Source: a virus
Lineage: Duplodnaviria > Caudoviricetes
IMG/VR virus record: IMGVR_UViG_3300017766_003924
Coordinates: 20,478 to 84,477 of that record
Direction: 5' to 3' (one strand)
DNA length: 64,000 bases
Shown: positions 7,126 through 47,705 of the stretch, one piece after another
How positions within the stretch are numbered: position 1 is the stretch's first letter
How the letters are laid out: each line of letters starts with the position of its first letter
Made by a program: the position numbers and the translations under genes
Notes under the pieces: generated by a model
What the model saw: only the letters and a program-made list of their open reading frames with translations
Databases searched by the model: none
Told to the model about the DNA's origin: nothing

Positions 7126-7875
7126 TTAGGTACCCCACTTTTGTAAAAACTTTTCTTGATTAGCTTTGAAGATTGGGTCCTCTAGAGATTTAAGACCAGG
7201 AGAAACGTGGAATATATTGTGTACTTGTGAAAATACCCCTATCTTTAGACGCTTTTCATTGGCTGCTAAACAGAAGTCTAAATCGTAACAATGAAAAGAG
7301 AATTGATTATCAAACTGGAGGTTATTATCTTGAAGAGTTTTTAATGTAGTACACATTATGAGACCATCAACAAGAATACACCGCTGTCCTTGAGGTCCAA
7401 ATGTTGTTACACATTCAACATCTCCATATGGATGAGATACAGCACCGGCCCATGCTTTACGATCAGACATTATATGCCATAGTGTAGGCTCTGTAATATT
7501 TAAGAGACCACCAGAACCTGCTGCTCCTACAATATCGAACTTCTCAAAATCTTTATAGAGTCCTTGATAAAAGAATGAAAGGCTCGATCTAATAAATACA
7601 TCATCATGTACAAATACTACAATTTGATCTCCCTTGGTATTTTTTGAAAGATGCTTTACTGCATCATTATATACCTTCGAGAGTGAATCAGTATTACTAT
7701 GCTTTATAAGGTGTGTATATTGAACACCTTCAATATTACAATGAAAGGTAGCATACTCAGCGGAAATATCTGAATAAATCCAGGTTTTTTCATCAACATA
7801 CTTGAATATGTTAGTGCTTATATTACCTACTGATTGTTTAGTGGCTGTAACGAATGTAATGTTTAATTTATTCAT
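7126..7875 (-). CDS. GT-A fold glycosyltransferase (family 2-like)
   Basis: SLSKVYN, VFVHDDV (DxD-like), DIVGAAG, VDGLIM, FHCYDLDFC. Confidence 0.8.
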   Translation of the reverse strand: MNKLNITFVTATKQSVGNISTNIFKYVDEKTWIYSDISAEYATFHCNIEGVQYTHLIKHSNTDSLSKVYNDAVKHLSKNTKGDQIVVFVHDDVFIRSSLSFFYQGLYKDFEKFDIVGAAGSGGLLNITEPTLWHIMSDRKAWAGAVSHPYGDVECVTTFGPQGQRCILVDGLIMCTTLKTLQDNNLQFDNQFSFHCYDLDFCLAANEKRLKIGVFSQVHNIFHVSPGLKSLEDPIFKANQEKFLQKWGT

Positions 7876-8530
7876 CTATAAAATAAGAAGATTTGATTAC
7901 TGTTTTTAATAGGATGTTGTTGAAGATATCGTATGCGCATCCGTTGGGTAGTTCATTGAAGGACGCCGTTTTGACAGATGAAAAGCTTGTATCATTAAAA
8001 TAGAGAGTTGACCCATTACGAGCTATATATACCTTCTTTGATTTTTCATCCAGACACCAAATACCTACAGTTCCTTCTAGGAGTTCTAATGTTTTGAGTA
8101 TACCTATATGAGTATCATAGTCACTAAACTCTAAACCAATTAACTTGGGTATTATTTCTGAATCAACAGAAGATTTAAGTAATTCTCGAGCATTATATGT
8201 CTTAACTAATTCAGAGTAGTTAGAAATTACTCCATTATGAGCAACGAGTAAATATCTACTTCTAAAGGGGTGCATATTCGAGCGGGCAGGTTCTCTCTCA
8301 CAAGTAGTAGGTGCTTGTGTGTGACCGAGATAGTAAAAATTATCACCTGGATCAGGCTTTTGAAATAATACAGCATCTATATCAATAGGCATTTTAAAGA
8401 TGTGTTCTGTTGTACGGCCAAAATTTCTTTCAAATTCTATAAATGATACTGCTTTAGAGCCTCGCGTTAAGTTATCTCTATAGAGTTGTTTAAATTCTGT
8501 TAAATCGTTTGATCCAAATATTCCACACAT
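7868..8530 (-). CDS. stand-alone class II (Ntn) glutamine amidotransferase
   Basis: N-terminal MCGIFG nucleophile Cys, GHTQAPT, HPF, AHNGVISN, DSE motifs. Confidence 0.85.
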   Translation of the reverse strand: MCGIFGSNDLTEFKQLYRDNLTRGSKAVSFIEFERNFGRTTEHIFKMPIDIDAVLFQKPDPGDNFYYLGHTQAPTTCEREPARSNMHPFRSRYLLVAHNGVISNYSELVKTYNARELLKSSVDSEIIPKLIGLEFSDYDTHIGILKTLELLEGTVGIWCLDEKSKKVYIARNGSTLYFNDTSFSSVKTASFNELPNGCAYDIFNNILLKTVIKSSYFIDE

Positions 8531-8535
8531 ATATT

Positions 8536-9561
8536 TTAATTATTGTTTAATTGAACGGTAAAATCAACATGTTTTATAGCTGATAAATCCTTACCACCTG
8601 CATAACTTATAGATGATTGAAGTGCTTCTTTAATATTTTGAGTAACCTCTCTAATAGTACATCCTGCAGCAATCTCTAATTCTCTACCTTCAATGTGTTT
8701 ATTTGTTTTCTTTGCTTGAAATGATGTAGACCCATAGTAGACCTTTTTACCATCTTTTATCTCAGCCGGTGAATCAATACATTGTGCAAAGAGTCTACCG
8801 GTCATAACCATATCAGCACCGAACCTTATTGCCTTAGCAATATCACCAATATGTTTAACACCACCGTCTGCTATGAGATATTTTCGTTTAAAGATTCCAG
8901 GTGTTGATGCACACTTATATCTCCATTCACATAATGCATCCCAACACTTATCTATTGCAGTTACCATAGGCATTGAAAACCCTGTTTGAAGGCGGGTAGT
9001 ACAAATAGACCCTTGTCCTATTCCGACCTTTACAATGTCAGCACCTGCATCAAAGAGATCCATAGTACCATCATATGTAGTCACGTTACCTGCAATAATA
9101 ATTACTTCAGGAAATAAGCTCTCTATCAGTTTAATCCTATCATACACTTTACTATGATGACCATGAGCTACGTCAATGGTGATAAAGTCTACTCTGTGTT
9201 TTCCCTTGTGTATGTCTTTAAGTACTAATTCCGTATCTTCATTAACACCTGTACTTATACTTACAACATTAAAATCAGCATTGTTTGCATATTCAACAAA
9301 TTTATAAACGTCTATATTTTCGAGTCGATGCATTACATAGAAAATATTGAGACTATCATATAGTTGAGCAGTTTCAGTATTTACAACTGTAGCCATATTA
9401 GCAGGTATTACAGGTAAATTAAATTTAAACAGCTTTTTCTTATGAGGAAATGTTAATGTTACTGATGTATCTCCTACTGACCGTGTAGGAAGTGTAGATG
9501 ACATGGGTGTTAAGAGTACATTATCATAACACAATGCTATTTTATCATTAAAGTCAATCAT
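8536..9561 (-). CDS. guaC: GMP reductase (IMPDH/GMPR family, no CBS domains)
   Basis: [53 protein letters not shown]-terminus typical of GuaC. Confidence 0.82.
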
Positions 9562-10271
9562 ACTATTGGCTTACAGTTGTATTTCTCCCAGTTAATAGTC
9601 TTTGAATATGATACTGGGTCTATATATCCTGCATCTATAAATCCTTTAATACGACTCGAGCATGAAGGACACTCACCACATGAAAGTATATTCTTTGAAT
9701 AGCAAGTCCGTGTATCTTTAAAGTCTATTCCACACTTGATACCTAATTCAATTATTTCTTTCTTTGAAAGCTTAATAAGAGGTGCTTCGATAGATATCTG
9801 ATTTCTACGATTTAGTGAAGTTACTTTATTCATCCATAACCAAAACTCTTCACTAGCATCCCAATATCCACTTACCGTATCAATTTCTGCTGCACCATAG
9901 AATACCTTCTCTGCACCATAGTTTTCTGCACATGCACATGCAATAGAAAGCATCATCATGTTTCTAAACGGTACATAAGTCGTAGGTTGTGGATCCCCTA
10001 AGATGTCTTTCATTTTAGGAATATCTAATTGATCATTTGTCAGAGATGATATTTGTGTTACATCTTTAAGAAATGAAATATCGAGCTGTTTATATGATGC
10101 TCCTATTTTAGCAGTTTGTGACTGAGCATTATTCAATTCGAAAGAGTGTTTCTGTCCATAGTAAAAACCTAGAGTCTGAATTTTATCATACCCTAGGTTT
10201 TTGTGTACGTGATGTAATACTACTGAAGAGTCGAGCCCTCCACTTAATACTACTAACGCTTTTTTAATCAT
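9558..10271 (-). CDS. queC: 7-cyano-7-deazaguanine (preQ0) synthase
   Basis: LSGGLDS PP-loop, YGQKH, TYVPFRN, CY...CGECPSC zinc site. Confidence 0.95.
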   Translation of the reverse strand: MIKKALVVLSGGLDSSVVLHHVHKNLGYDKIQTLGFYYGQKHSFELNNAQSQTAKIGASYKQLDISFLKDVTQISSLTNDQLDIPKMKDILGDPQPTTYVPFRNMMMLSIACACAENYGAEKVFYGAAEIDTVSGYWDASEEFWLWMNKVTSLNRRNQISIEAPLIKLSKKEIIELGIKCGIDFKDTRTCYSKNILSCGECPSCSSRIKGFIDAGYIDPVSYSKTINWEKYNCKPIV

Positions 10272-28292: not shown

Positions 28293-28937
28293 TTACTTAC
28301 TCTTCGAGAACTCTACAAATTTGTAAAACTCTGCTCTCGAATTATCATTATTATCTAAGAACGCACCAGACATGCGAGCTGTTCTCATCGTTGAATCATG
28401 TTTAATTCCTCTATTTGAGCAACAAGTATGATCACATTCAAGTAATACCGCAACACCCTTGTTACCTTCACACACCTCATCGATATAATTAAAGATCTGC
28501 TGAGTGAGTGACTCCTGTACTTGAGGTCTCCGAGCAAACCAATCTACAATTCGATTAAGTTTGCTTAAACCAATCACTTTACCTTCCTTAGAGGGTATAT
28601 AAGCTACATGAGCAATACCTGTAAAGGCTAAATGATGATGAGAACACAGGGATGTTAGTTTGATATTGTTCTGACATACCATACCGTTATAACCTTCGAT
28701 ATTATCGAAGGCTGTTACATTCGGTGGCTTTGTGTAGCATCCCGATATAATGTCTGTTACGAACGCTTTAGCGACTCTGTGAGGAGTATTGCTAGAATGA
28801 GGATCATTTCTCCAGTCGATTGCGAGAGCATCGAGAAATTGCTCATATGCCACTTCAGCACGACTAACAATTTGTTCGAGCTCCACGGGAGTCCTCTCTT
28901 TATTTCCATTTGCATAGGGTATTTTTTCGAGTTCCAT
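28293..28937 (-). CDS. folE: GTP cyclohydrolase I
   Basis: TPHRVAK, SLCSHHHL, GLSKLNRIV, RRPQVQE, C...RG. Confidence 0.96.
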   Translation of the reverse strand: MELEKIPYANGNKERTPVELEQIVSRAEVAYEQFLDALAIDWRNDPHSSNTPHRVAKAFVTDIISGCYTKPPNVTAFDNIEGYNGMVCQNNIKLTSLCSHHHLAFTGIAHVAYIPSKEGKVIGLSKLNRIVDWFARRPQVQESLTQQIFNYIDEVCEGNKGVAVLLECDHTCCSNRGIKHDSTMRTARMSGAFLDNNDNSRAEFYKFVEFSKSK

Positions 28938-32845: not shown

Positions 32846-33601
32846 ATGAAAGAAGACTTTTTGTTACTCGCAGGTGTTAACAATGAACCAGAGATTTTTT
32901 ATACTCTAGAGGGAGAAGGCAAATATGTCGGCAAACCTTCTGTTTTCATGAGACTCTTCGGATGTAATCTAACATGTAAGGGATTTGCATCTCCCGGTTC
33001 ACCACACGGATGTGACAGTTATATCTCATGGTCGGTAAAGAATAGAGTAAGCTTCGATCAGCTCTTTGAAATCTTCGAAAAGCAAGGCTTTGTTCAGAAC
33101 TTTATTGATGACCATGCAATATTTAAAATCACTGGTGGTGAACCTTTTATTAGAGAGAAGCCATTGATAGAATTTGTCAAAGCATTTAGAGAAAAATATG
33201 GATTTTTACCTCATATTGACTTTGAAACTAACGGAACTATAGTACCTAATGAATTCTGGGATAGAGAAGCAATGGCAACATTTACTGTCTCACCTAAGTT
33301 AGCATCTAATGGTGATCCCTATATAAAGAGATACAATGAAAAGGCATTAGAGTTTCACTCTTTAGCAAATTCTTGCTTCAAATTTGTAGTAAAGTCTGAA
33401 GCAGACATTCAAGAAATTGAAGATAATTACATCACACCTTTTAATTTGATGAGGAGTAAAGTGTATTTGATGCCCTGCTGCGGTAGTCGTGAAGAATTGA
33501 TTCAAAACTGCACGCAAACTGCAGAATGGTGTAAGAAGTATGGCTATAGCTTTAGTTCACGATTACACTTAATGTTGTGGGATAAAGCTCTTAGAGTATA
33601 A
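32846..33601 (+). CDS. queE: 7-carboxy-7-deazaguanine synthase (radical SAM)
   Basis: EIFYTLEGEG, VFMRLFGCNLTC...CDS, ITGGEP, ETNGT, SPKL, FKFVV, RLH. Confidence 0.92.
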   Translation: MKEDFLLLAGVNNEPEIFYTLEGEGKYVGKPSVFMRLFGCNLTCKGFASPGSPHGCDSYISWSVKNRVSFDQLFEIFEKQGFVQNFIDDHAIFKITGGEPFIREKPLIEFVKAFREKYGFLPHIDFETNGTIVPNEFWDREAMATFTVSPKLASNGDPYIKRYNEKALEFHSLANSCFKFVVKSEADIQEIEDNYITPFNLMRSKVYLMPCCGSREELIQNCTQTAEWCKKYGYSFSSRLHLMLWDKALRV

Positions 33602-38051: not shown

Positions 38052-38056
38052 ATTTT

Positions 38057-38701: not shown

Positions 38702-38702
38702 G

Positions 38703-38870
38703 ATGATTACCTTGTTAAGCATCTTAGGCATACATTTATATAATATTCACTCTCTCGATTCTTCATATAGAAAAAGAATTAGAGAGGAGTGTGATAGAGT
38801 ATTAAATCAACCTAAGTATACTCCAACATACCCAACGTTTAAGCGTACCTTTCCTGACGTAAAATTATGA
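38703..38870 (+). CDS. small hypothetical protein (55 aa) not in ORF track
   Basis: Manual translation MITLLSILGIH...FPDVKL; fills the gap and overlaps the next start as ATGA. Confidence 0.45.
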   Translation: MITLLSILGIHLYNIHSLDSSYRKRIREECDRVLNQPKYTPTYPTFKRTFPDVKL

Positions 38871-39676: not shown

Positions 39677-40062
39677 TGAGTAAAGAATTAAAAGTTCGAG
39701 TTTTCGATAGATACAGTAAAGCGTATCTAACATCTCGCGGTAAAGAATATGGAGAGTCACCATTTGTTTATTACAATTTGGGTGTACCTTACAATTTGAG
39801 TGAGATCCTCGCATATAAAGAGGAACATGGTTATGATAGATTTAAAGTAGAAGAATTTACCGGATTACGAGACAAAGATGGAATAGATATATATGACGGA
39901 GATATCTTACAAAATGAACTTACAAAACGTACATATGAAGTATGTTGGGATAGTGGTGGAGAATGGGTAAAGTGTGATTTACAAGATGGACGACTTGACG
40001 AGGAACTATATAAAAGTTTAGTAAAGTGTACAATAATTGGTAATGTTTCAGAAAATGAATAG
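39676..40062 (+). CDS. YopX-family protein
   Basis: KVRVFD, FTGLRDKDGIDIYDGDIL, IIGNV. Confidence 0.88.
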   Translation: MSKELKVRVFDRYSKAYLTSRGKEYGESPFVYYNLGVPYNLSEILAYKEEHGYDRFKVEEFTGLRDKDGIDIYDGDILQNELTKRTYEVCWDSGGEWVKCDLQDGRLDEELYKSLVKCTIIGNVSENE

Positions 40063-40795
40063 ATTTTGTATTATAAATCAACCTGCTGGATTAGGTGATA
40101 TTTGCTTTTGTCAAAAAATCGCAGTAGAAATATGTCAAAAGTACGGATGCGAAGTAATATGGCCAGTTATTAATGAGTTTCTCTGGATACAAAACTACAT
40201 TAAAACACCTGGTGTAACATTTACATCTAAAGTAGACTTACATAGTGAGATTTTACCTCGTTTAGCAAATAAACACAATAAAATAGAATGGCTCGACCTT
40301 CAAACTGCTGATCAGCACTACCCTAATGAATCAGTAATGCTTGCAAAATATAAGTATGCAGGTATAGATTGGTCAAATTGGTCTGAATATTTTAAGTTTG
40401 AGCGCAATCATCAAAAAGAAGATGAACTATATAAGAAGTTAGTAGGAGATACTCAAGACTACATCTTCGTCAATCGTAATTATGGTTCTCCACCTAATTA
40501 TGTTCAATGTAAGTATATCGATATGGATTACTTACGTGAAATATACCCTCACTACAAGATTATAGAAATGAATTTCTTAGAGGGATATACTCTGTTTGAT
40601 TGGTCTAAAATTCTTGAGAATGCAGGAGCTATACATACAGCTGAAACTTCTCTGAACTATATAATGGAAAAACTAGACATACGAATTCAAAAGTATATCT
40701 ATTCAAAACATACACCACCATCATTCAACCATGTTGATATGCTTTTTACGGGCTGCTATTATATGGATGAAAGCGCATTACCTACTAAAAAATGA
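40037..40795 (+). CDS. putative glycosyltransferase-like protein
   Basis: QPAGLGDI, W.KILENA..IHTAETS pattern; likely start at 40056 (MNRF). Confidence 0.55.
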   Translation: MVMFQKMNRFCIINQPAGLGDICFCQKIAVEICQKYGCEVIWPVINEFLWIQNYIKTPGVTFTSKVDLHSEILPRLANKHNKIEWLDLQTADQHYPNESVMLAKYKYAGIDWSNWSEYFKFERNHQKEDELYKKLVGDTQDYIFVNRNYGSPPNYVQCKYIDMDYLREIYPHYKIIEMNFLEGYTLFDWSKILENAGAIHTAETSLNYIMEKLDIRIQKYIYSKHTPPSFNHVDMLFTGCYYMDESALPTKK

Positions 40796-41301
40796 AAATT
40801 AAGTACTATCCAGTTACACGAGCTGGTACAATCGCAAAGACACCGGATTATTACAATTCCTTTGATAAACCTCTATGTTGTGATTTAGTAGGAATGACTG
40901 ATTCTTTAATATACCGTCAATCATCTCTCTATGATATGTATACCAGAATTTGTGGAGAAGATGTACCATTTATACATCCTGGTAGATTGACTATCGAAAA
41001 TAAAGAAGTCTCATCGAACGAGATTGTACAATTAATTTACCCTCATTGGAAGGCGTATAGGGAAACAGTAATCTTACCTAAAATACAAGAACTTAAGGAA
41101 TTAATACAAAAGCTTAAAGATGACTATAAAAATAGCTGTCAATCTCTTTATTTTATTGCATTTGAATCTAGTTACACTATCACACAGTATAAAAACAATA
41201 TACGTATGCTAGAGGCTTTACAGATAGGTAAAATATATACCCTCGATGATAGTGAAGATTCCATTAAGATTGTAGATGACATTAAACCAGTAACAATATG
41301 A
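40792..41301 (+). CDS. hypothetical protein
   Basis: 169 aa, ATGA overlaps with neighbours. Confidence 0.55.
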   Translation: MKIKYYPVTRAGTIAKTPDYYNSFDKPLCCDLVGMTDSLIYRQSSLYDMYTRICGEDVPFIHPGRLTIENKEVSSNEIVQLIYPHWKAYRETVILPKIQELKELIQKLKDDYKNSCQSLYFIAFESSYTITQYKNNIRMLEALQIGKIYTLDDSEDSIKIVDDIKPVTI

Positions 41302-41651
41302 TAGATAGACAACGCTTTAAACACTTTAAATTTTCTGAATCCGACTTTCAAATGCTTGATAAGTATGAAAAAAAGGGTTGGAAATTTGATATCGAAGAGA
41401 GCTTCGATCCTCATACACGTGAAGATGATGAATATTTTAATTTTCAGAGCCCCCGAATGAAGTCTCCAACTACATTGTGGATAACTCCATTTACAGAGCA
41501 AGAATTGATACAAATGGAGTTAAATAAAGTTCTCTATGAATTCATGGATAGACATGAACATACACTAACAGATGCTATTAGTAAAAAGATTCTTAGTATG
41601 TTCGAAGGAGATAAAGTTCCAGATATTAAAGATGTATTAAAGGTTATATGA
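41298..41651 (+). CDS. hypothetical protein
   Basis: 117 aa, ATGA overlaps. Confidence 0.55.
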   Translation: MIDRQRFKHFKFSESDFQMLDKYEKKGWKFDIEESFDPHTREDDEYFNFQSPRMKSPTTLWITPFTEQELIQMELNKVLYEFMDRHEHTLTDAISKKILSMFEGDKVPDIKDVLKVI

Positions 41652-41965
41652 AAAAACGTGAAAAAGATTGGATTATCGAAGTAACTGCAGATGAAAATGA
41701 TGCAGATTATGTTACAGAGATTTCTACAATTAGTAATGAGTGGCTTGAAAAAATAAAGCCAGTTATTGCAGCTATTAAGAAGAATCATGGGGATTACCCA
41801 AGAGGTGAAATAGTAGGAAAGAATGAAAAATCTGCAGAGGATATTTACGGTCACCTTCCAGGATTTCAAGGATTTGATGCTCTAGTACCCTATGGTGAAT
41901 ACGGCATTCATTCAATTGACAAGATTGTCATTTATCCATACATTGAAAAGACCCGATTGTTATGA
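41648..41965 (+). CDS. hypothetical protein
   Basis: 105 aa, ATGA overlaps. Confidence 0.55.
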   Translation: MKKREKDWIIEVTADENDADYVTEISTISNEWLEKIKPVIAAIKKNHGDYPRGEIVGKNEKSAEDIYGHLPGFQGFDALVPYGEYGIHSIDKIVIYPYIEKTRLL

Positions 41966-42234
41966 ACATTACTCTTCATAAACCGAGAAGATACTCTCAG
42001 TGCACTAAGAGATGGGTAAGGCCCTCTTATCTTACAGAATATTCACGACGAAATCCTTACAATAGCGGATATTGTGAAGATCAAAAGCTCATTCAGCGGC
42101 TCATAGAAACCACAACATATACTATTTTCATTTTAAATTTCATTGGTTTGCAGAGCTTCAAGAAATGTTACTCGAGAATAACAAGTGTGATGTACAGGTT
42201 ATTGGAAATATATTTGAAACACCCTATATATTAA
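41962..42234 (+). CDS. hypothetical protein
   Basis: 90 aa. Confidence 0.45.
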   Translation: MNITLHKPRRYSQCTKRWVRPSYLTEYSRRNPYNSGYCEDQKLIQRLIETTTYTIFILNFIGLQSFKKCYSRITSVMYRLLEIYLKHPIY

Positions 42235-42238
42235 AAAA

Positions 42239-42421
42239 ATGATAAAGTTACTTGAAAAGGATTATAGTTGGGAATCTTTATATGATGCTGAACGAGATGT
42301 TTCAGAAGCCATAAGTGAAGATGAGATCCCTAAAGAGTTAAAGAAGGTATATAAAGAATTTTGGAGTGGTAAAGGTACTGGTGGAGTTATAAAGATTAAA
42401 ATCGAATGGCATCCAGATTAA
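42239..42421 (+). CDS. hypothetical protein
   Basis: 60 aa. Confidence 0.5.
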   Translation: MIKLLEKDYSWESLYDAERDVSEAISEDEIPKELKKVYKEFWSGKGTGGVIKIKIEWHPD

Positions 42422-42425
42422 ATTT

Positions 42426-42725
42426 ATGGATACTATAAACATTATAAAGACAGAACATGGATTTAGGTTTGAAGATACTGGTCCATCCTTTCAAGAGTTA
42501 GTTAGAAGTGATGAATGGCAAGCAGCATTAATAGTATATGATAAGTACAGAAGAAAGTATAATCTTGAAGATAAGCATTTATTAGCACTACGAGATTATG
42601 TAGTTGAGTTTTCTTCAAATAAAAAATCTTCTGGTAAAGCTGTCAATAAAGATCATTTAATTCAAATAGCAGTATCACACATAAAAAATATGATACAAAA
42701 TTCACAAAGTGAAACATATGAGTAA
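42426..42725 (+). CDS. hypothetical protein
   Basis: 99 aa. Confidence 0.5.
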   Translation: MDTINIIKTEHGFRFEDTGPSFQELVRSDEWQAALIVYDKYRRKYNLEDKHLLALRDYVVEFSSNKKSSGKAVNKDHLIQIAVSHIKNMIQNSQSETYE

Positions 42726-43569
42726 ACTAACAGCAGTTATAGTCGGAAGAAATGATAATTATGGTGGTGATCTTGTTAAGAGAGCAGCATTTTGCTTTGA
42801 ACAATTACTAGCATATACAGTTGATGAAATTATATATGTAGATTGGAACACTATAAATGGTGTTAGTCTTCTTGATAAAGTAAAATCCTCGTGTATAGGT
42901 ATTATAAGTTGTGATAAGATAAAAGAGTACCGGGTTACTCCAGACATTATTGCTCAGTATTTACCTCATTGTAAAGATATTTCTATTGTTGAAACGGTAG
43001 CTCGAAATGTGGGTATTCAGAGAGCATCAGAAGATTCATGGGTTCTCTCAACTAATGTTGATATCCTTCTTGATCAGAATATAAAGCATATTCTTCCATA
43101 TCTTTCAAAGAGGTGTATGTATACTGCACGTCGTAGAGATGTACCTAAAGACTACTATTTAAAATACGACAACGGCATCGATCTATTTCATGATTTACAT
43201 GCAGTATATAATAAATTTCCTGCAAAGCCTCATGCAGATCAGCATTGTGATTCGGGAGATATATGGTCATTAGCAGTGTGTTGTGGAGACTTTCAACTCG
43301 CTCATAAGAGCCATTGGAATAATATTCGAGGATTTGAAGAAGAGATGGTAGGTAGATGTTATGCAGATACCAATCTCATGAAGAAGTCGTATATGGTAGG
43401 AGAGATTAATTGTCTTGAAATAGATAACTTCTTTCACCTAAATCATGACAATAGTAAGATTACACTACCTGGTGAATATCTTCCTATAAATGATAGGTTA
43501 AAATATACAGTAAACTTTCAAAAATCTACTAATCCTGTTACATGGGGTATGAGCGATATAAATTTATGA
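42709..43569 (+). CDS. GT-A fold glycosyltransferase-like protein
   Basis: GRNDNYGG, YVDWN, RNVGIQRA, TNVDI, GDFQL, GFEE...D. Confidence 0.7.
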   Translation: MKHMSKLTAVIVGRNDNYGGDLVKRAAFCFEQLLAYTVDEIIYVDWNTINGVSLLDKVKSSCIGIISCDKIKEYRVTPDIIAQYLPHCKDISIVETVARNVGIQRASEDSWVLSTNVDILLDQNIKHILPYLSKRCMYTARRRDVPKDYYLKYDNGIDLFHDLHAVYNKFPAKPHADQHCDSGDIWSLAVCCGDFQLAHKSHWNNIRGFEEEMVGRCYADTNLMKKSYMVGEINCLEIDNFFHLNHDNSKITLPGEYLPINDRLKYTVNFQKSTNPVTWGMSDINL

Positions 43570-44156
43570 ACTTTGATAATAGAAAACAAGTATTTGAAGA
43601 AGAGAGTTATCTCGATTTCGAAAATGGTTATCCTGAAAGAAACATAGAGTGGTTTGAACAACATATCTACCCCCATATGTCTCCTTATTGCAATAAGGAC
43701 GATATAAGGCTTTTAGATGTAGGCTGTGCATCAGGATATTTTACTCGAAGATTTGAGCAATTGTGTAATGAAGTATATGGTGTAGATTTAGCATCAAATC
43801 GTATTAAACATGCAAAGCAATACGAGACTGACAAGCTGAAGTTTTATAATATAGACATTACTAAAGATCCGTTAATGAATGTACTTCCCAAGCGACCTAA
43901 TCTAATATTTTCAAATGCAGTTATACCTCACATTCCTCTTAAGGATAAAGCTGCAGCATTTGAAAATATTGCAGCATGCAGTACTCTAGATGCAACATTT
44001 GTACTTTTTGATGATTTAGTACCTTCGGGTTGCGTTGATGACTTTGCCGGGTTATATAGTAGAGAATGGATTGACCAAAATACTCCATGGAGTGTAGTGA
44101 AAGTAGTTGATATTACCCCAGGAACATATAAAATCGTACTCAATAAAAAGTGTTAA
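43542..44156 (+). CDS. class I SAM-dependent methyltransferase
   Basis: LLDVGCASGYF, GVDLA, FSNAVIPHI; likely start at 43566 (MNFD). Confidence 0.88.
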   Translation: MGYERYKFMNFDNRKQVFEEESYLDFENGYPERNIEWFEQHIYPHMSPYCNKDDIRLLDVGCASGYFTRRFEQLCNEVYGVDLASNRIKHAKQYETDKLKFYNIDITKDPLMNVLPKRPNLIFSNAVIPHIPLKDKAAAFENIAACSTLDATFVLFDDLVPSGCVDDFAGLYSREWIDQNTPWSVVKVVDITPGTYKIVLNKKC

Positions 44157-44159
44157 ATT

Positions 44160-45185
44160 ATGAGTCTTGCAATCGTTACTACTACTATTAATTCACCTAC
44201 AGAAGCCACTAAGATGCTAGTACAGCTAGCAATCAATAATGGTTACTATTTTATAGTTGTGGGTGATACAAAAACTCCTCATAGCCATTATGAAGAGCTG
44301 TTTGATAGTCAACTATATAGTAGAGATAAGCTCATATATCTTCACCCTGATAAACAAGAAGCTTTATATCCTGAAATTTCACAATTGTTAGGATGGAAAA
44401 CTATTCAACGACGTAATATTGGCTTTCTCTATGCATTAGAGCATTTAATGTCGGGTTGGATCTACACTGTAGATGATGATAATATTCCATATTACGACAA
44501 ACTCAATCATTGGCTTAAGTTATGTAGTGGTATTAGTCACCCGCTTTCTCTGAACGTTGATATGTGGAAAACTCAAGAGAGTGTATTTGACCCTCTTGCT
44601 GCTACTAATCATGATGACCTATGGCATCGCGGATTTCCTCTATCTCTTCTAAAGACGAAAAATCATATTACCTTTGAGAAGCCTGAATATCTGAATAGCA
44701 TCAAAGTAATTGCAGGATTGTGGGATGGTGATCCTGATATTGATGCTATTACAAGAATTACAAAGAAACCTTTAGTATCACTTAAGACGAAATCAGGAGA
44801 TTCATATTCTTTTGCTCGTAATAAGGGACGTACCGTTGCACCCTTTAATAGTCAAAATACAATTCTTCATAAATCATGCTTTAAATACTATTGCGTACTT
44901 CCTGGGGTAGGAAGAATGGATGATATTTGGGGTGCATATCTGTTACAAAAGTTTGACCCAGATGCTGAGATTATCTTTACACCTCCAACTGTATATCAGG
45001 AACGCAATCAGCAATGCTTAGTGAAGAATCTCGAAAATGAGTTACTTGGTTACAAGTATACAGAATCAGTTATTAGCTGTGATACTATAAATCATCTTGA
45101 TTTTATTCCTCAGCAAACAAAAGACTTTTATCAAGCATATTATGATAAAGTCACCCAGATATTAAAACATAATTCATCATTTTAA
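44160..45185 (+). CDS. STELLO (DUF288)/RGP-like glycosyltransferase or sugar mutase
   Basis: VTTTIN, VVGDTKTP, RRNIGFLYA, YTVDDDN, WHRGFP, GDPDIDA, FNSQNT, RMDDIW. Confidence 0.75.
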   Translation: MSLAIVTTTINSPTEATKMLVQLAINNGYYFIVVGDTKTPHSHYEELFDSQLYSRDKLIYLHPDKQEALYPEISQLLGWKTIQRRNIGFLYALEHLMSGWIYTVDDDNIPYYDKLNHWLKLCSGISHPLSLNVDMWKTQESVFDPLAATNHDDLWHRGFPLSLLKTKNHITFEKPEYLNSIKVIAGLWDGDPDIDAITRITKKPLVSLKTKSGDSYSFARNKGRTVAPFNSQNTILHKSCFKYYCVLPGVGRMDDIWGAYLLQKFDPDAEIIFTPPTVYQERNQQCLVKNLENELLGYKYTESVISCDTINHLDFIPQQTKDFYQAYYDKVTQILKHNSSF

Positions 45186-45221
45186 TGATTGATTTATTTG
45201 TAGAACATTTAACATATTAGT

Positions 45222-46226
45222 ATGAATCAAAAAACAGCGTTAGTGTTAGGTGGTGGAGGGTTTATCGGTAATCATCTCGTCAATAGATTGAGAGCTGATG
45301 GATATTGGGTAAGAGCAGTAGATTTAAAGTATCCTGAGTATTCAGAATCTCATGCAGATGAGTTTATTATGGGTGATTTACGAAATCCACTTTTCGTATC
45401 CACGGTTATGTTTGGACCTTATCAAATCTCTCCTAAGGAAGGTAGCTTTGATGAAGTATATCAGCTTGCAGCAGATATGGGCGGTGCAGGATTTATCTTT
45501 ACTGGTGCTAACGACGCTGCAATTATGCACAACTCTGCCACCATTAATCTTAATGTAGCAGAAGCAGCAAAGAATCATGGAGTAAAAAAGATATTCTATA
45601 GCTCTAGTGCTTGTATGTATCCAGCATTCAATCAAGAAGACCCAGAAAATCCAAATTGTGAAGAGTCCTCTGCATATCCTGCATATCCCGATAGTGAGTA
45701 TGGATGGGAAAAGCTCTTTAGTGAACGCCTATTCTTAGCATATCAGCGCAATTATGGTCTCAATGTGAGGATTGCACGCTTTCACAATATCTTCGGCCCT
45801 CTCGGTACTTGGGATGGTGGTAGAGAAAAGGCACCTGCGGCTATTTGTAGAAAGATCGCATTAGCGCAAGATGGTGATACTATTGAAATCTGGGGTAATG
45901 GTAATCAAACTCGAAGCTTTCTTTATGTTGATGAATGCGTTGAAGGAATTATTAGATTGATGAAATCTGACTTCACTGGTCCAGTTAATATCGGATCGGA
46001 AGAAATGGTTACTATTAATCAGCTTGTAGATTATGTTAGTGAAATCGCACAAAAGAAAATTATTAAGAAGCATATTCCTGGCCCTACTGGTGTCAAAGGC
46101 CGTAACTCAGACAATAAGCTTATCACCAAGAAGTTGGAATGGGCACCCAATTATCCACTTAAGAAGGGCCTAAGCCAAGTTTATCCTTGGATTCTCTCAC
46201 AGATTGAATTAAAATCAAAAGCGTAA
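45222..46226 (+). CDS. NAD-dependent epimerase, GDP-mannose 3,5-epimerase-like
   Basis: GGGGFIG, LAADMGGAGFI, YSSSACMYP, YGWEKLFSER, RFHNIFGP, GGREKAPAAICRK, GVKGRNSDN. Confidence 0.9.
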   Translation: MNQKTALVLGGGGFIGNHLVNRLRADGYWVRAVDLKYPEYSESHADEFIMGDLRNPLFVSTVMFGPYQISPKEGSFDEVYQLAADMGGAGFIFTGANDAAIMHNSATINLNVAEAAKNHGVKKIFYSSSACMYPAFNQEDPENPNCEESSAYPAYPDSEYGWEKLFSERLFLAYQRNYGLNVRIARFHNIFGPLGTWDGGREKAPAAICRKIALAQDGDTIEIWGNGNQTRSFLYVDECVEGIIRLMKSDFTGPVNIGSEEMVTINQLVDYVSEIAQKKIIKKHIPGPTGVKGRNSDNKLITKKLEWAPNYPLKKGLSQVYPWILSQIELKSKA

Positions 46227-46229
46227 AAT

Positions 46230-46814
46230 ATGATTATAACTCCTCAAACATATAACGGTGACTTGATTCATCAACCTTTTGCATATCAAATATTTCGTAA
46301 GAATGTACTTCCTATCGGTAATATTGTAAGCTTTGTTGGTCCCGCAGATGTTACTACTAATTTAATTGATCTTGAAGATAAACTTGCAAATGATTACATC
46401 TACTCTGAAAAGATGGTGCATTTCTGTTGGGAAATACCTGATGGTCTCCTCACCAAATTTGGTGCTGTTGCACATCAGCGGTTACTTAACACAGGCATCG
46501 CTAATATACTCCATAAATACATCCAAAAACCTATTGAGGTAGATGGTGATGACATTATGGTTCATGCAGAATTTATTCAGCGTAATATCACTCAGAATGT
46601 AGGTAAAGCAAGTGTAAGTATTGTACATCAGTTAAATGGTGTTACTTTAGGACATACAGGAATTAATATCACTGCAGGTGAGAAGGCTCCAGGATTTGCA
46701 TATTCTACAAAATTAACTGATGAGCAAGCTACAAAGTTTCAAAACGAGGTCATTAAGTTCTTTTATGAACTCCAAGACGACATGTTTATCGCTACGACGA
46801 AGGTAATCGTTTAA
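46230..46814 (+). CDS. DUF366 family protein (lipoate/biotin ligase-like fold)
   Basis: YNG..I, IVSFVGPADV, IDLED, IYSEKMVHF, QRLL, GDDI, K.SVSI, HTGINI. Confidence 0.8.
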   Translation: MIITPQTYNGDLIHQPFAYQIFRKNVLPIGNIVSFVGPADVTTNLIDLEDKLANDYIYSEKMVHFCWEIPDGLLTKFGAVAHQRLLNTGIANILHKYIQKPIEVDGDDIMVHAEFIQRNITQNVGKASVSIVHQLNGVTLGHTGINITAGEKAPGFAYSTKLTDEQATKFQNEVIKFFYELQDDMFIATTKVIV

Positions 46815-46815
46815 T

Positions 46816-47292
46816 ATGAAAAAATATCAAAGTACAAAAATTATTGAGTTAGGATCTGCTGCATTTAGACAATGGGCATCAACTCACTCTCACTGTCAAT
46901 ATTTGCATGGGTATAATCTCACTGCTAAATTTTGGATTGAATCGAGAGAACTAGATCATCGCAATTGGGTGTTTGATTTTGGTGATTTTGATGAAATTAA
47001 GCGCCAGTTAAGAGAACTAATTGACCATAAAACGTTAGTTGCTGCAAATGATCCAGCACTGCAGTATTATCAAGTAATGGAAAAGCAGGGAATAATGCAG
47101 CTTACTATTATGCCGAATGGCGTTGGTATTGAACGTACCGCAGAGCTATGTTATAATATTGCGTCTGAATATATTTTTAAACAGATTAAAGCTGGTAAGT
47201 GTAATCCTGGATGTATGATAGTAAAGGTAGAGGTATGGGAACACGATAAAAACTCTGCAGTGTTTATTCCTGATAATGTATATACTGCATAA
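46816..47292 (+). CDS. queD: 6-carboxytetrahydropterin synthase
   Basis: SHCQYLHGY, WVFDFG, DHKTLV, E..AE, VEVWEHDKNSA. Confidence 0.9.
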   Translation: MKKYQSTKIIELGSAAFRQWASTHSHCQYLHGYNLTAKFWIESRELDHRNWVFDFGDFDEIKRQLRELIDHKTLVAANDPALQYYQVMEKQGIMQLTIMPNGVGIERTAELCYNIASEYIFKQIKAGKCNPGCMIVKVEVWEHDKNSAVFIPDNVYTA

Positions 47293-47705
47293 TGAATACC
47301 ATATTTGATTATCTAAAAGATATCATCAAAGAAAAGAAGGGTAATTTAATAACGAATGTAGATGATGAGTCTACATTCGTCCCTTTCTTAGTAAATAGAT
47401 GGCTATCAATGCATTCACCACAGAATGCAATTCTCGTTAATTTAACAGGAAATCAGAATTGGAGTATCTTTAATACTAAGACTGAATACTACAAGTATCT
47501 CTTAGCTCTTATTCCTCAAGATAATCGCATTTACATTAGTTACATAAAAAAGGTAAAAGAGAATGTTAACAAAGATGAGGAACATATTGAAGAAATCGTT
47601 TCTCTTTTATCTAATCAATTACAACTATCAAAGAGAGAGATACGTATGTATATTGAAACAACTGGTTTAGATCTTACTCCGTATAAAAAGATCCTTAAAA
47701 GTTGA
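47292..47705 (+). CDS. 62: clamp-loader small subunit (gp62-like)
   Basis: IFDYLKDI, FVPFLVNRWLSM, YKYLL..IP...YISYIKK. Confidence 0.7.
   Translation: MNTIFDYLKDIIKEKKGNLITNVDDESTFVPFLVNRWLSMHSPQNAILVNLTGNQNWSIFNTKTEYYKYLLALIPQDNRIYISYIKKVKENVNKDEEHIEEIVSLLSNQLQLSKREIRMYIETTGLDLTPYKKILKS

What the first reader, a model, noticed from the sequence alone, without database searches (positions are those of the whole stretch)
46230..47292. DUF366 immediately upstream of queD: candidate missing enzyme of a deazaguanine pathway
Seen: a DUF366-like ORF ending 1 nt before queD. Established: DUF366 is functionally uncharacterised and has a lipoate/biotin-ligase-like fold, a superfamily that adenylates carboxylates and transfers them to amines. 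CDG, the QueE product, carries a free 7-carboxylate. Inference: DUF366 could activate CDG (free or on a nucleotide) to make an amide such as ADG or a conjugate with an amine, amino-sugar or protein, possibly with the stand-alone Gat as nitrogen donor. This would be a new branch and would give DUF366 a function.
Basis: inference. Interest (0 to 1): 0.78.

Follow-up and report, generated by a model that had tools for sequence, protein, structure and literature searches.

The report
DUF366, unstudied partner of preQ0 genes
A phage gene of unknown function (DUF366, biotin/lipoate-ligase fold) sits next to a queD-like gene, and in bacteria, archaea and related phages the same family lies among the genes that make the 7-deazaguanine precursor preQ0, so it is probably an undescribed fifth part of that well-studied pathway.

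Summary
ORF 46230-46814 is a full-length DUF366 protein (Pfam E 5e-21). Its stop lies 1 nt before a QueD-like ORF (46816-47292), in a T4-like uncultured myovirus that also carries folE, queE, queC, queF, a stand-alone Gat and a GuaC-like gene.

The link to deazaguanine genes is real, but it does not run through queD. Only this genome, 1 of 84 related viral loci, has queD beside DUF366. In 61 of 84 loci the gene closes a QueC-Gat-x-x-glycosyltransferase-DUF366 operon. In 65 of 75 cellular loci from at least 10 bacterial phyla, DUF366 lies directly between queC and queE, in the order queD-queC-DUF366-queE-folE.

In an archaeal phylum sample, all 42 DUF366+ genomes have QueC, against 50 of 79 DUF366- genomes. 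Cellular QueCs that occur with DUF366 carry FPDN in place of the canonical YPDC pocket motif. One natural QueC-DUF366 fusion exists.

The fold is confirmed: AF2 pLDDT 96, and TM 0.82 to PDB 2DDZ, followed by BPL/LplA structures. The BPL catalytic Lys, the (N)D motif and the GxGxN motif appear to be retained. The GRGRxGR loop is absent.

Best reading: DUF366 is an accessory component that acts at the CDG stage, probably by ATP-dependent activation of the carboxylate. That mechanism is inferred, not shown. A new pathway branch is not supported. No paper in the searchable library describes this. The scan had already noted the DUF366-QueC link on other DNA.

The parts
46230..46814 (+). DUF366 (PF04017) protein, 194 aa, with a BPL/LplA-like fold. 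It keeps the family's conserved residues: D47-x-E49-D50, E68, Q83-R84, G106-D107-D108, K126-x-SVSI, H142-x-G-x-N146 and K191.
   Evidence: Pfam E 4.6e-21. AF2 pLDDT 96.4. TM 0.82 to 2DDZ. Conserved columns.
46816..47292 (+). QueD-like T-fold protein, 158 aa, starting 1 nt after the DUF366 stop. Its motif is CxxxHGY, and two of the three canonical zinc-binding His residues are replaced.
   Evidence: PF01242 E 6.6e-16 and phrog_2389 E 4.8e-33. Below the TIGR03367 cut-off. Alignment A5.
9558..10271 (-). QueC (preQ0 synthase family), 237 aa. Its pocket motifs read YGQKHSFE / VPFRN / YWDA. In most related phages QueC is in the same operon as DUF366.
   Evidence: PF06508 E 1.2e-57. Motif table. Synteny.
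8536..9561 (-). GuaC-like GMP reductase family protein lying between QueC and Gat.
   Evidence: PF00478 E 2.7e-54. NCBIfam GMP reductase hit below cut-off.
7868..8530 (-). Stand-alone class II glutamine amidotransferase (Gat).
   Evidence: GATase_6 E 3e-10. The homologous gene follows QueC in the QueC-Gat-..-GT-DUF366 operon of relatives.
7126..7875 (-). Glyco_tranf_2_5 glycosyltransferase. Its homologue directly precedes DUF366 in 61 of 84 related viral loci.
   Evidence: PF13712 E 3.9e-9..
28293..28937 (-). FolE (GTP cyclohydrolase I).
   Evidence: PF01227 E 2.5e-47.
32846..33601 (+). QueE-like radical SAM protein (CDG synthase family). It scores below all NCBIfam QueE cut-offs, as do the QueEs of cellular DUF366 operons.
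   Evidence: Fer4_12 E 7e-5. TIGR03963 65.6 bits against a cut-off of 260.
45222..46226 (+). NAD-dependent sugar-nucleotide epimerase/dehydratase at the last position of a glycan island (35.5-46.2 kb). It is a neighbour and probably not a functional partner.
   Evidence: PF01370 E 1.5e-41 and phrog_540 E 1e-80. Island genes.
47292..47705 (+). gp62-like clamp-loader small subunit. It is the conserved downstream flank of DUF366 in 76 of 84 related viral loci, which shows that queD is an insertion at this slot.
   Evidence: phrog_225 E 1.9e-10. Cluster c1.

Best explanation
DUF366 is an accessory, so far undescribed component of 7-deazaguanine (preQ0) biosynthesis. It works at the 7-carboxy-7-deazaguanine (CDG) stage together with QueC and QueE.

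Most likely mechanism (inferred): like the biotin and lipoate ligases whose fold it shares, it binds ATP and the CDG carboxylate and forms or holds CDG-AMP. This would carry out or assist the first half of the QueC reaction (CDG to the amide ADG, using ammonia). QueC would then complete the dehydration to the nitrile preQ0. In the phage lineage the ammonia could come from the co-operonic Gat.

In this phage the gene has been separated from its usual QueC-Gat-GT operon, and a QueD-like gene has been inserted after it.

Shown: family membership, fold, gene neighbourhood, co-occurrence, co-variation with a QueC motif, and one fusion.
Inferred: the ligand (CDG), ATP use, and the reaction.

I put about 0.9 on 'acts in the deazaguanine pathway' and about 0.4 on the specific carboxylate-activation mechanism.
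For: - Cellular neighbourhood. Of 75 genome loci with a called DUF366 ORF, 52 have QueC directly upstream, 58 have QueE directly downstream, and 65 have at least one. The typical order is queD-queC-DUF366-queE-folE, with gaps of -1 or -4 nt. These loci span at least 10 bacterial phyla.
- Bacillota-type phylum sample. DUF366 is present in 24 of 251 genomes, and QueC is adjacent in 19 of those 24.
- Archaeal phylum sample. QueC is found in 42 of 42 DUF366+ genomes and in 50 of 79 DUF366- genomes (Fisher p 7e-7, not corrected for phylogeny).
- QueC co-variation. The canonical YPDC pocket motif (Y131 essential according to PMC13082051) reads FPDN in 59 of 61 bacterial DUF366-adjacent QueCs and in 18 of 20 archaeal QueCs from DUF366+ genomes. 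It reads FPDN in 0 of 20 and 1 of 17 QueCs from DUF366- genomes. The His of YxQxHxxE is also lost.
- Fusion. P0277 (408 aa) is QueC(4-213)-linker-DUF366(222-407).
- Viral loci. At least 585 IMG/VR loci encode the phage clade. In 61 of 84 examined, DUF366 closes a QueC-Gat-127aa-87aa-GT-DUF366 operon. A distant virus (L010) has DUF366 overlapping FolE2 by 1 nt.
- Fold and motifs. An hhalign against eight BPLs (E 8e-5, probability 62%) aligns GDD with WPND, K126 with the catalytic Lys (BirA K183), and HTGIN with GxGIN. These residues are invariant in both the phage clade and the cellular clade.
- Position. The gene lies between the producer of CDG (QueE) and its consumer (QueC).
Against: - No biochemical data exist for any DUF366 protein.
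- Canonical QueC alone converts CDG to preQ0 in vitro (established knowledge), so no extra enzyme is strictly needed.
- The FPDN-type QueCs keep the PP-loop, the VPxRN motif and the zinc site, so they look like complete enzymes.
- DUF366 lacks the GRGRxGR lid that BPLs use for ATP and carboxylate binding, and the BPL alignment has only 62% probability.
- DUF366-like proteins at the same slot in other T4-like phages lack the Lys and GDD motifs. This favours a binding or scaffolding role.
- Phage QueCs of the same YWDC type occur in Vibrio phages such as VH7D, which make dPreQ1 without any DUF366.
- Some lineages (Sericytochromatia, one Archaeoglobales MAG) have DUF366 away from que genes.
- The fusion is a single metagenomic instance, on a contig that also shows a split tRNA synthetase gene.
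- The co-occurrence statistics are not phylogenetically independent.
Confidence: 0.4

Rival explanations
1. DUF366 is a non-catalytic partner. It would be a small oligomeric protein that binds CDG, ADG or preQ0 in the former adenylate pocket and hands the intermediate from QueE to QueC, or stabilises a QueE-QueC complex, without using ATP.
For: - The genes overlap QueC and QueE by 1-4 nt, which points to translational coupling.
- PH0223 self-associates in a two-hybrid screen (PMC1414084), and the 2DDZ entry holds six chains.
- The GRGRxGR lid is absent.
- Motif-less DUF366-like proteins persist at the same slot beside GT, GuaC-like and FolE genes in other T4-like phages.
- E68 is the only nearly invariant residue across the whole family. 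A single carboxylate is the usual anchor for a 2-amino-4-oxo-pyrimidine ring (inference).
Against: The BPL catalytic Lys, the GDD motif and the HxGxN motif are strictly conserved across the cellular and main phage clades, between sequences only about 30% identical overall. That is the pattern expected for an active site.
Confidence: 0.25
2. One reading: DUF366 adenylates CDG and couples it to an amine other than ammonia (an amino sugar, a protein lysine or a nucleotide), giving a new conjugated 7-deazaguanine. In phages this could be combined with the adjacent glycosyltransferase and Gat.
For: - BPL and LplA transfer adenylated acids to amines.
- QueC-family Cap9 and QatC enzymes make CDG-protein amides, termed deazaguanylation (papers listed; PMC13082051).
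- In 61 of 84 phage loci DUF366 directly follows a Glyco_tranf_2_5 gene, within a QueC-Gat-GT-DUF366 operon.
- In this window DUF366 abuts a sugar-nucleotide epimerase and a glycan island.
Against: Cellular DUF366 genes lie in plain five-gene preQ0 operons with no acceptor, glycosyltransferase or Gat. These organisms have QueA (5 of 5 tested) or are archaea that need only preQ0. The glycan genes beside DUF366 differ from phage to phage, as expected of a hypervariable island and not of a pathway.
Confidence: 0.12
3. DUF366 takes part in the step after preQ0 (preQ0 to preQ1), replacing or assisting the nitrile reductase QueF in bacteria that lack it.
For: Among QueC+ genomes of the Bacillota-type sample, a true QueF is found in 1 of 22 DUF366+ genomes and in 29 of 46 DUF366- genomes (p 3e-6). 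QueF is absent from five DUF366+ genomes, two of them complete, and all four bacterial ones among them have QueA, so they need preQ1. DUF366 occupies the slot that queF holds in the Bacillus queCDEF operon.
Against: - A BPL fold has no nicotinamide, flavin or Fe-S site, and no conserved Cys.
- Archaea that do not make preQ1 carry DUF366.
- This phage has both a bimodular QueF and DUF366.
- 17 of the 46 QueC+ DUF366- genomes also lack QueF, so another substitute must exist anyway.
Confidence: 0.07
4. In this phage DUF366 has no link to deazaguanine metabolism. It would be the last gene of the sugar/glycan island, for example an acyl- or aminoacyl-ligase for an amino sugar, and it lies beside queD by chance.
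For: - The gap to the upstream NAD epimerase is 3 nt.
- The region 35.5-46.2 kb encodes GT2, GT2, GT11, an FkbM methyltransferase, GT10, a methyltransferase and an epimerase.
- In relatives L011 and L005 DUF366 is flanked by DegT aminotransferase, epimerases and methyltransferases.
- queD follows DUF366 in only 1 of 84 loci.
Against: The content of the island varies, while DUF366 and its downstream flank are constant (76 of 84 loci). The same protein clade sits in QueC operons in 61 of 84 loci. The cellular homologues, which share all active-site motifs, are embedded in que operons with no sugar genes.
Confidence: 0.05

Closest known systems
PH0223 of Pyrococcus horikoshii (PDB 2DDZ), the only solved member of Pfam DUF366 / COG2029
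   Same: Same family (profile E 7e-34) and same fold (TM 0.82). The motifs GDD, K-LS(I/V)SI, HxGxN and the C-terminal K-V are shared (alignment).
   Different: Only 23% identical. PH0223 is a structural-genomics entry with no assigned function. The phage clade has its own features: a W before E68, and an insertion after GDD.
Biotin protein ligase (BirA/BPL) and lipoate protein ligase (LplA), Pfam PF03099
   Same: The core alpha/beta fold matches (Foldseek E 1e-6 to 1e-4, TM 0.5-0.6; Atlas TM 0.61-0.68). hhalign aligns the WPND, catalytic Lys and GxGIN regions.
   Different: There is no PF03099 HMM hit, no GRGRxGR or RRxxGGGxVxHD loop, and no C-terminal cap or HTH domain. The protein is about 190 aa in total. 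No biotin or lipoate acceptor-protein context exists; the context is the que genes.
Canonical preQ0 pathway: FolE-QueD-QueE-QueC (B. subtilis queCDEF, E. coli)
   Same: All four genes are present in the phage record and in the cellular operons that carry DUF366.
   Different: The canonical pathway has four enzymes and no DUF366. In cellular DUF366 operons the QueC has FPDN in place of YPDC and lacks the His of YxQxHxxE. QueE scores far below every NCBIfam QueE model cut-off. queF is missing.
Phage 7-deazaguanine DNA-modification systems (Hutinet 2019; Cui et al. 2023, PMC10516641), including DpdL, DpdM, DpdN and Gat-QueC
   Same: The phage carries FolE, a QueD-like gene, QueE, QueC, QueF and Gat, as do known deazaguanine-modifying phages. 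The closest cultured QueCs (about 41% identity) are from KVP40-like Vibrio phages with dPreQ1 or mdPreQ1.
   Different: No DpdA/TGT is detectable in the 84-kb fragment, which is about 40% complete. DUF366 is in none of the described systems. A tblastn search of 50,697 phage records finds it only in one record that looks like bacterial DNA. DpdL is a QueD paralogue with LxxxHRHxF, which matches neither DUF366 nor the CxxxHGY protein here.
AsnA (aspartate-ammonia ligase), a class II aaRS/BPL-superfamily amidoligase (from general knowledge)
   Same: It supplies the proposed chemistry: carboxylate + ATP gives an acyl-AMP, which then reacts with ammonia to give the amide, all on the same superfamily fold.
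   Different: No sequence or specific structural match was obtained here. This is an analogy of mechanism only.

Membership tests
Pfam DUF366 (PF04017) | HMM score above the gathering cut-off over the full domain length | tested here: met
   75.6 bits against a cut-off of 29.9. Residues 5-192 match profile positions 9-183 of 184. The own-genome search gives E 3e-22.
Pfam DUF366 (PF04017) | Fold of the solved member, PH0223 (2DDZ) | tested here: met
   AF2 model with pLDDT 96.4. Foldseek TM 0.82-0.84 and E 3e-12 to 2ddz_A.
Pfam DUF366 (PF04017) | Conserved family motifs: DxED, E, QR, GDD, KxSVSI, HxGxN and a C-terminal K | tested here: met
   All are present in P0001. They are invariant in the phage clade (A4) and in the cellular clade (A3). 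See the column print.
BPL/LplA/LipB adenylating ligases (PF03099) | Core alpha/beta fold of the catalytic domain | tested here: met
   Foldseek hits to 2ej9, 1x2g, 5t8u, 8eni and others at E 2e-6 to 5e-4, TM 0.5-0.6. Atlas TM 0.61-0.68.
BPL/LplA/LipB adenylating ligases (PF03099) | Catalytic lysine (BirA K183 / PhBPL K111), with the preceding (W)PND motif and the following GxGxN motif | tested here: inconclusive
   hhalign against eight BPLs aligns K126, G-D107-D108 and H142-x-G-x-N146 to these motifs, but only at probability 62% and E 8e-5. No residue-level structural superposition was available.
BPL/LplA/LipB adenylating ligases (PF03099) | Gly/Arg-rich ATP/substrate lid (GRGRxGR in BPL; RRxxGGGxVxHD in LplA) | tested here: not met
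   No such motif occurs in P0001 or in any DUF366 clade. The aligned region starts only at the W-E-x-P segment.
BPL/LplA/LipB adenylating ligases (PF03099) | Sequence membership (HMM hit) | tested here: not met
   Pfam scan at E 0.01 or below returns DUF366 only. NCBIfam returns nothing.
BPL/LplA/LipB adenylating ligases (PF03099) | ATP-dependent adenylation of a carboxylic acid | not testable with these tools
   Needs an ATP-PPi exchange or AMP-formation assay with CDG.
preQ0 biosynthesis gene set (functional module) | Conserved operonic linkage with queC, queD, queE and folE across distant taxa | tested here: met
   65 of 75 cellular loci have QueC directly upstream and/or QueE directly downstream, across at least 10 bacterial phyla. 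In archaea the genes are adjacent in many genomes (coordinates). In 61 of 84 viral loci DUF366 is in a QueC operon.
preQ0 biosynthesis gene set (functional module) | Co-occurrence: DUF366 is present only where QueC is present | tested here: met
   Archaeal phylum sample: 42 of 42 against 50 of 79. Bacillota-type sample: 22 of 24 against 46 of 227; one of the two exceptions has DUF366 at a contig edge and in the other no QueC was found.
preQ0 biosynthesis gene set (functional module) | Demonstrated requirement for or effect on preQ0, Q or G+ formation | not testable with these tools
   No genetic or biochemical data were found. 'DUF366' as a whole word returns 0 papers, and PF04017 and COG2029 return 0 relevant papers.
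DpdL (proposed CDG decarboxylase, a QueD paralogue) | T-fold QueD paralogue with LxxxHRHxF in place of CxxxHGH | tested here: not met
   DUF366 is not a T-fold protein. The neighbouring QueD-like ORF has C27-x3-H31-G-Y, so it keeps the Cys.
QueD (6-carboxytetrahydropterin synthase), for the neighbouring ORF 46816-47292 | NCBIfam equivalog score, the CxxxHGH motif and three zinc-binding His residues | tested here: not met
   TIGR03367 scores 36.8 bits against a cut-off of 89.25. The first His is F and the third His is Y in all five phage-clade sequences. Cys, Asp-His and Glu are retained. It is therefore called 'QueD-like' here.
QueF (nitrile reductase) | T-fold with a catalytic Cys and the E(S/L)K(S/A)hK(L/Y)(Y/F/W) motif | tested here: not met
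   DUF366 has a different fold and no conserved Cys. A separate bimodular QueF is encoded at G000:314-931.

The most novel reading that the evidence does not exclude
DUF366 is a BPL-fold, ATP-dependent CDG ligase (CDG + ATP + ammonia or another amine gives ADG or a CDG-amide). With an FPDN-type (or phage YWD-type) QueC it would form a two-protein nitrile synthase, which would add a fifth enzyme to the preQ0 pathway of many anaerobic bacteria, archaea and a large clade of uncultured T4-like phages. In phages the same enzyme, fed by Gat, could set the end product (ADG, G+ or a conjugate) that goes into DNA.
Probability: 0.3. Interest if true: 0.8.

Novelty: new variant of a known kind. Interest (0 to 1): 0.66.

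Why it matters
The GTP-to-preQ0 pathway (FolE, QueD, QueE, QueC) is regarded as complete and has been reconstituted in vitro. Here a conserved fifth gene is wedged between queC and queE in at least ten bacterial phyla, is linked to QueC in archaea, and is present in at least 585 viral contigs. This suggests that in many organisms the CDG-to-preQ0 step runs differently from the textbook model.

It also gives a testable function to a 20-year-old structural-genomics orphan (2DDZ). The work identifies a QueC subtype (FPDN) that may depend on DUF366. It also points to a set of bacteria that need preQ1 but lack QueF.

For phage biology, it adds a recurrent, unrecognised member to the 7-deazaguanine DNA-modification toolkit of abundant uncultured T4-like phages. 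Phages use such modifications to evade restriction.

Tried and rejected
- DpdL identity. DpdL of Cui et al. 2023 is a QueD paralogue and is unrelated to DUF366.
- Single-sequence PDB search with P0001 found nothing relevant. Only the family profile found 2DDZ.
- The only INPHARED tblastn hit, 'Microcystis phage MaAM05', is flanked by fliM, glyS, mtgA, fabI and secF. It looks like bacterial DNA, so it was not used as phage context.
- The search for related loci with the broad alignment A2 failed because no conserved stretch was available. Narrower alignments A3 and A4 worked.
- A search for fused forms using a DUF366 query over longer lengths found none. The fusion was found only with a QueC query.
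- I tested whether the 202-aa ORF that follows QueC in Vibrio phage VH7D is a cryptic DUF366. It is not (hhalign probability 0.1%).
- I planned to fold the QueC-DUF366 fusion from a mixed alignment (A6). MAFFT placed the DUF366 rows on the QueC half, so the fold was not run.
- The radical SAM gene upstream of DUF366 in the Archaeoglobales locus L082 is not clearly QueE (16.5 bits).
- Promoter, terminator and T4 late-promoter (TATAAATA) scans gave nothing above chance near the locus.
- PHROGs and NCBIfam have no model that hits DUF366.
- Supplements of the two most relevant papers are not held, so I could not check whether PF04017 appears in their neighbourhood tables.
Full report
WHAT IS THERE. 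The window is part of an 84.5-kb IMG/VR viral record that is about 40% complete. It belongs to a T4-like myovirus: portal, gp13, gp15, clamp-loader and gp31-like genes surround the locus.

ORF 46230-46814 (+, 194 aa, P0001) matches Pfam DUF366 (PF04017) at E 4.6e-21 over the whole domain. ORF 46816-47292 (+, 158 aa, P0002) matches PTPS/QueD (E 6.6e-16) and phrog_2389 'QueD-like' (E 4.8e-33). The DNA reads GTT TAA T ATG, so one nucleotide separates the two genes. An NAD-dependent sugar epimerase ends 3 nt upstream of DUF366, and a gp62-like gene overlaps the end of queD. No terminator-like site separates them.

THE REST OF THE PATHWAY IN THIS PHAGE. The window encodes the following deazaguanine-related genes:
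- QueC (9558-10271, minus strand; E 1e-57)
- a GuaC-like GMP reductase (8536-9561, minus strand)
- a stand-alone class II Gat (7868-8530, minus strand)
- a Glyco_tranf_2_5 glycosyltransferase (7126-7875, minus strand)
- FolE (28293-28937, minus strand)
- a QueE-like radical SAM protein (32846-33601, plus strand)

A bimodular QueF lies just outside the window (G000:314-931). No TGT/DpdA was found in the 84 kb, which means little for a fragment. The stretch 35.5-46.2 kb upstream of DUF366 is a glycan island: GT2, GT2, GT11, FkbM methyltransferase, GT10, another methyltransferase, and the epimerase.

FOLD. A profile of 59 family members finds PDB 2DDZ (PH0223, 'hypothetical protein') at E 7e-34. 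The AlphaFold2 model of P0001 is very confident (pLDDT 96.4, pTM 0.91). Foldseek ranks 2DDZ first (TM 0.82), followed by biotin and lipoate protein ligases (TM 0.5-0.6, E 2e-6 to 5e-4). The ESM Atlas gives the same picture.

A profile-profile alignment against eight BPLs taken from DUF366-bearing genomes gave E 8e-5 and probability 62%. It aligns:
- G106-D107-D108 with the BPL (W)PND motif
- K126 with the catalytic lysine (BirA K183)
- H142-x-G-x-N146 with GxGIN
- W67-E68-x-P70 with the W-x-S-P that follows the BPL lid

The Gly/Arg-rich lid itself (GRGRxGR) has no counterpart. K126, GDD, HxGxN, DxED, E68, QR and a C-terminal Lys are invariant both in the phage clade and in the cellular clade, which are only about 30% identical to each other. 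This looks like a conserved active site, but use of ATP and a carboxylate is inferred and not shown.

IS THE queD ADJACENCY CONSERVED? No. I fetched 80 IMG/VR loci of the phage clade (at least 585 exist) plus earlier loci, called ORFs, and clustered them.
- The downstream flank (gp62-like, gp31-like, and so on) is constant in 76 of 84 loci.
- queD follows DUF366 only in this window (1 of 84).
- In 61 of 84 loci the upstream genes are QueC, Gat (GATase_6), a 127-aa ORF, an 87-aa ORF and a Glyco_tranf_2_5 glycosyltransferase, all co-oriented and ending with DUF366.

In this window the homologous QueC-GuaC-Gat-GT cassette sits 36 kb away. Here the module has therefore been split, a glycan island lies upstream of DUF366, and queD has been inserted after it. 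Other relatives have various sugar genes upstream. This is the signature of a hypervariable slot.

A distant virus (L010, 36% identity) has DUF366 overlapping FolE2 by 1 nt, followed by a phosphoribosyltransferase. No cultured phage in INPHARED has DUF366. The single hit is a record that looks bacterial. PHROGs has no model for the family.

CELLULAR CONTEXT. This is the decisive evidence. Using the cellular-type members, 279 loci were found in one-per-species GTDB genomes, and I analysed the best 80.

Unbiased clustering of flanking ORFs gave four dominant neighbour families. Pfam identifies them as QueD, QueC, a QueE-type radical SAM protein, and FolE. The order queD-queC-DUF366-queE-folE(-surE) recurs in about 60 loci.

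With HMMs built from these clusters, QueC is directly upstream in 52 of 75 loci and QueE directly downstream in 58 of 75. One or both occur in 65 of 75 loci, with typical gaps of -1 or -4 nt, in Bacillota and 10 other bacterial phyla. QueC-DUF366 pairs exist without QueE nearby (Gastranaerophilales). DUF366-QueE pairs exist without QueC nearby (Heliobacteria). So the link is to both neighbours, and the metabolite they share is CDG. Exceptions are Sericytochromatia, an Archaeoglobales MAG and one other archaeal contig.

CO-OCCURRENCE.
- In 251 genomes of the Desulfosporosinus phylum, DUF366 is in 24. Of those, 22 have a true QueC and 19 have it adjacent.
- In 121 genomes of the Archaeoglobales phylum, DUF366 is in 42. 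All 42 have QueC, against 50 of 79 genomes without DUF366 (p 7e-7). In many of these the two genes are adjacent.
- These p-values ignore shared ancestry and are only indicative.

A QueC SUBTYPE GOES WITH DUF366. I tested the idea against the catalytic signature published in PMC13082051: SGGxDS, YxQxHxxE, VPxRN, YPDC and the zinc motif, with Y35, R99, Y131 and Y189 essential.
- QueCs from DUF366- genomes have YPDC (19 of 20 bacterial; 7 of 7 readable high-scoring archaeal).
- QueCs next to DUF366 have FPDN (59 of 61 bacterial). In archaeal DUF366+ genomes 18 of 20 have FPDN.
- Only 1 of 17 readable QueCs from archaeal DUF366- genomes has FPDN (p 1e-24, uncorrected).
- The His of YxQxHxxE is also replaced in the DUF366-linked QueCs.
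- The QueE of these operons, like the phage QueE, scores far below every NCBIfam QueE cut-off.

The phage QueCs are a third type (YWDC; YWDA in this window). That type also occurs in KVP40-like Vibrio phages, which have no DUF366. So the motif argument holds for cells and not for phages.

A 408-aa protein from one metagenomic contig is a QueC-linker-DUF366 fusion with both domains complete. The same contig has a split aspartyl-tRNA synthetase gene, so an assembly artefact cannot be excluded.

QueF. True QueF is found in 1 of 22 QueC+ DUF366+ genomes and in 29 of 46 QueC+ DUF366- genomes of the Bacillota-type sample. It is absent from five DUF366+ genomes. QueA was found in all five DUF366+ bacterial genomes tested, four of which are in that QueF-lacking set. 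These bacteria therefore need preQ1 but lack the known reductase. I do not think DUF366 is the substitute, for three reasons: the fold has no redox site, archaea carry DUF366, and this phage has both genes. The pattern remains unexplained and worth following.

INTERPRETATION. DUF366 is almost certainly (about 0.9) a functional part of 7-deazaguanine synthesis. Its position between the producer and the consumer of CDG, its ligase fold with a conserved Lys/Asp/Asn constellation, and its co-variation with QueC's substrate-pocket motif together make CDG activation or amidation the best single mechanism (about 0.4). The main rival is a non-catalytic CDG-handling or scaffolding role (about 0.25). 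That rival is supported by the missing lid and by motif-less DUF366-like genes at the same slot in other T4-like phages, beside GT, GuaC-like and FolE genes.

KNOWN OR NEW.
- 'DUF366' as a whole word returns no paper, and PF04017, COG2029 and IPR007162 return none.
- PH0223 appears only in a two-hybrid table, as a self-interacting protein.
- The 2023 NAR survey of phage deazaguanine genes and the 2026 QueC-family preprint do not mention the family in their main texts. Their supplements are not held.
- NCBIfam has no model for it.

Within what can be searched, the function and the QueC link are unpublished. This scan had already noted the DUF366-QueC link on other DNA. Here I re-derived it independently and added four things: the FPDN co-variation counts, the archaeal co-occurrence, the synteny history of this phage clade, and the VH7D counter-example.

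Noticed in passing
window 46816-47292; L100:1834-2298, L110:1789-2229, L168:1475-2071, L175:430-1047: The phage 'QueD' clade keeps the catalytic Cys, the Asp-His dyad and the Glu, but replaces two of the three aligned zinc-binding His residues (AAH becomes AAF; HGH becomes HGY). A conserved His directly precedes the Cys (S-H-C). It scores well below the QueD equivalog cut-off. Whether it still makes CPH4 is open. It is not DpdL.
   Followed up: partly
window 8536-9561 (-); L247:918-1916; L010:6702-7181: A GuaC-like GMP reductase lies between QueC and Gat, and directly before a DUF366-like gene in another T4-like phage. A phosphoribosyltransferase follows DUF366-FolE2 in L010. This recalls the toyocamycin route (ToyH PRTase, ToyE GMP-reductase homologue) and suggests nucleotide-level 7-deazapurine metabolism in these phages.
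   Followed up: no
genomes G004, G005, G007, G008, G012 and the 251-genome sample: DUF366-bearing Bacillota have QueA but no detectable QueF (1 of 22, against 29 of 46 in QueC+ DUF366- genomes). The route from preQ0 to preQ1 in these bacteria is unknown.
   Followed up: partly
P0277 (ENA ERZ25072999, 17-kb contig): A single natural QueC-DUF366 fusion of 408 aa: QueC 4-213, a linker of about 8 residues, DUF366 222-407. The contig also has a split tRNA-synt_2 gene, so a frameshift artefact is possible.
   Followed up: partly
L245:6001-6549, L246:6001-6567, L247:1913-2479 (P0245, P0142, P0161; also P0190): Other marine T4-like phages carry very divergent DUF366-like genes at the same slot upstream of gp15 and portal. 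These lack the GDD, K-x-SVSI and DxED motifs and have no Pfam hit on record. Their neighbours include Glyco_tranf_2_5, GuaC-like, FolE and dCMP deaminase genes.
   Followed up: partly
window 35536-46226: A glycan/sugar island of about 10 kb: two GT2, GT11 and GT10 (fucosyltransferase-like), an FkbM methyltransferase, YopX, a SAM methyltransferase, a 341-aa unknown and an NAD epimerase. Its content differs in each related phage (DegT aminotransferase, E1_dh, GT47-like, and others).
   Followed up: partly
L001 (MW495066.1, 'Microcystis phage MaAM05', 108417-124914): This GenBank phage record carries fliM, secF, glyS, mtgA, fabI, engB and a DUF366 gene. The stretch looks like bacterial chromosome and not phage DNA.
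   Followed up: no
L010:7181-9115: An AAA_28 (NadR-like) kinase gene interrupted by an intein with a LAGLIDADG domain, next to the DUF366-FolE2-PRTase genes. A GIY-YIG/NUMOD3 homing endonuclease lies nearby.
   Followed up: no
L248 (Vibrio phage VH7D 5432-12064): In VH7D, a phage known to carry mdPreQ1, the genes run FolE, 458-aa ORF, QueF, QueC, 202-aa ORF, then small ORFs and gp31. This slot is syntenic with the DUF366 slot here. The 202-aa ORF that overlaps the QueC stop is not DUF366-like and is unannotated.
   Followed up: partly
G000 whole record (84,477 b): No TGT/DpdA-family gene (PF01702) was detected, even though a full preQ0/preQ1 gene set is present. The record is only about 40% complete, so the inserting enzyme may lie in the missing part or be too divergent to detect (DpdA3- or DpdA4-like).
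   Followed up: partly
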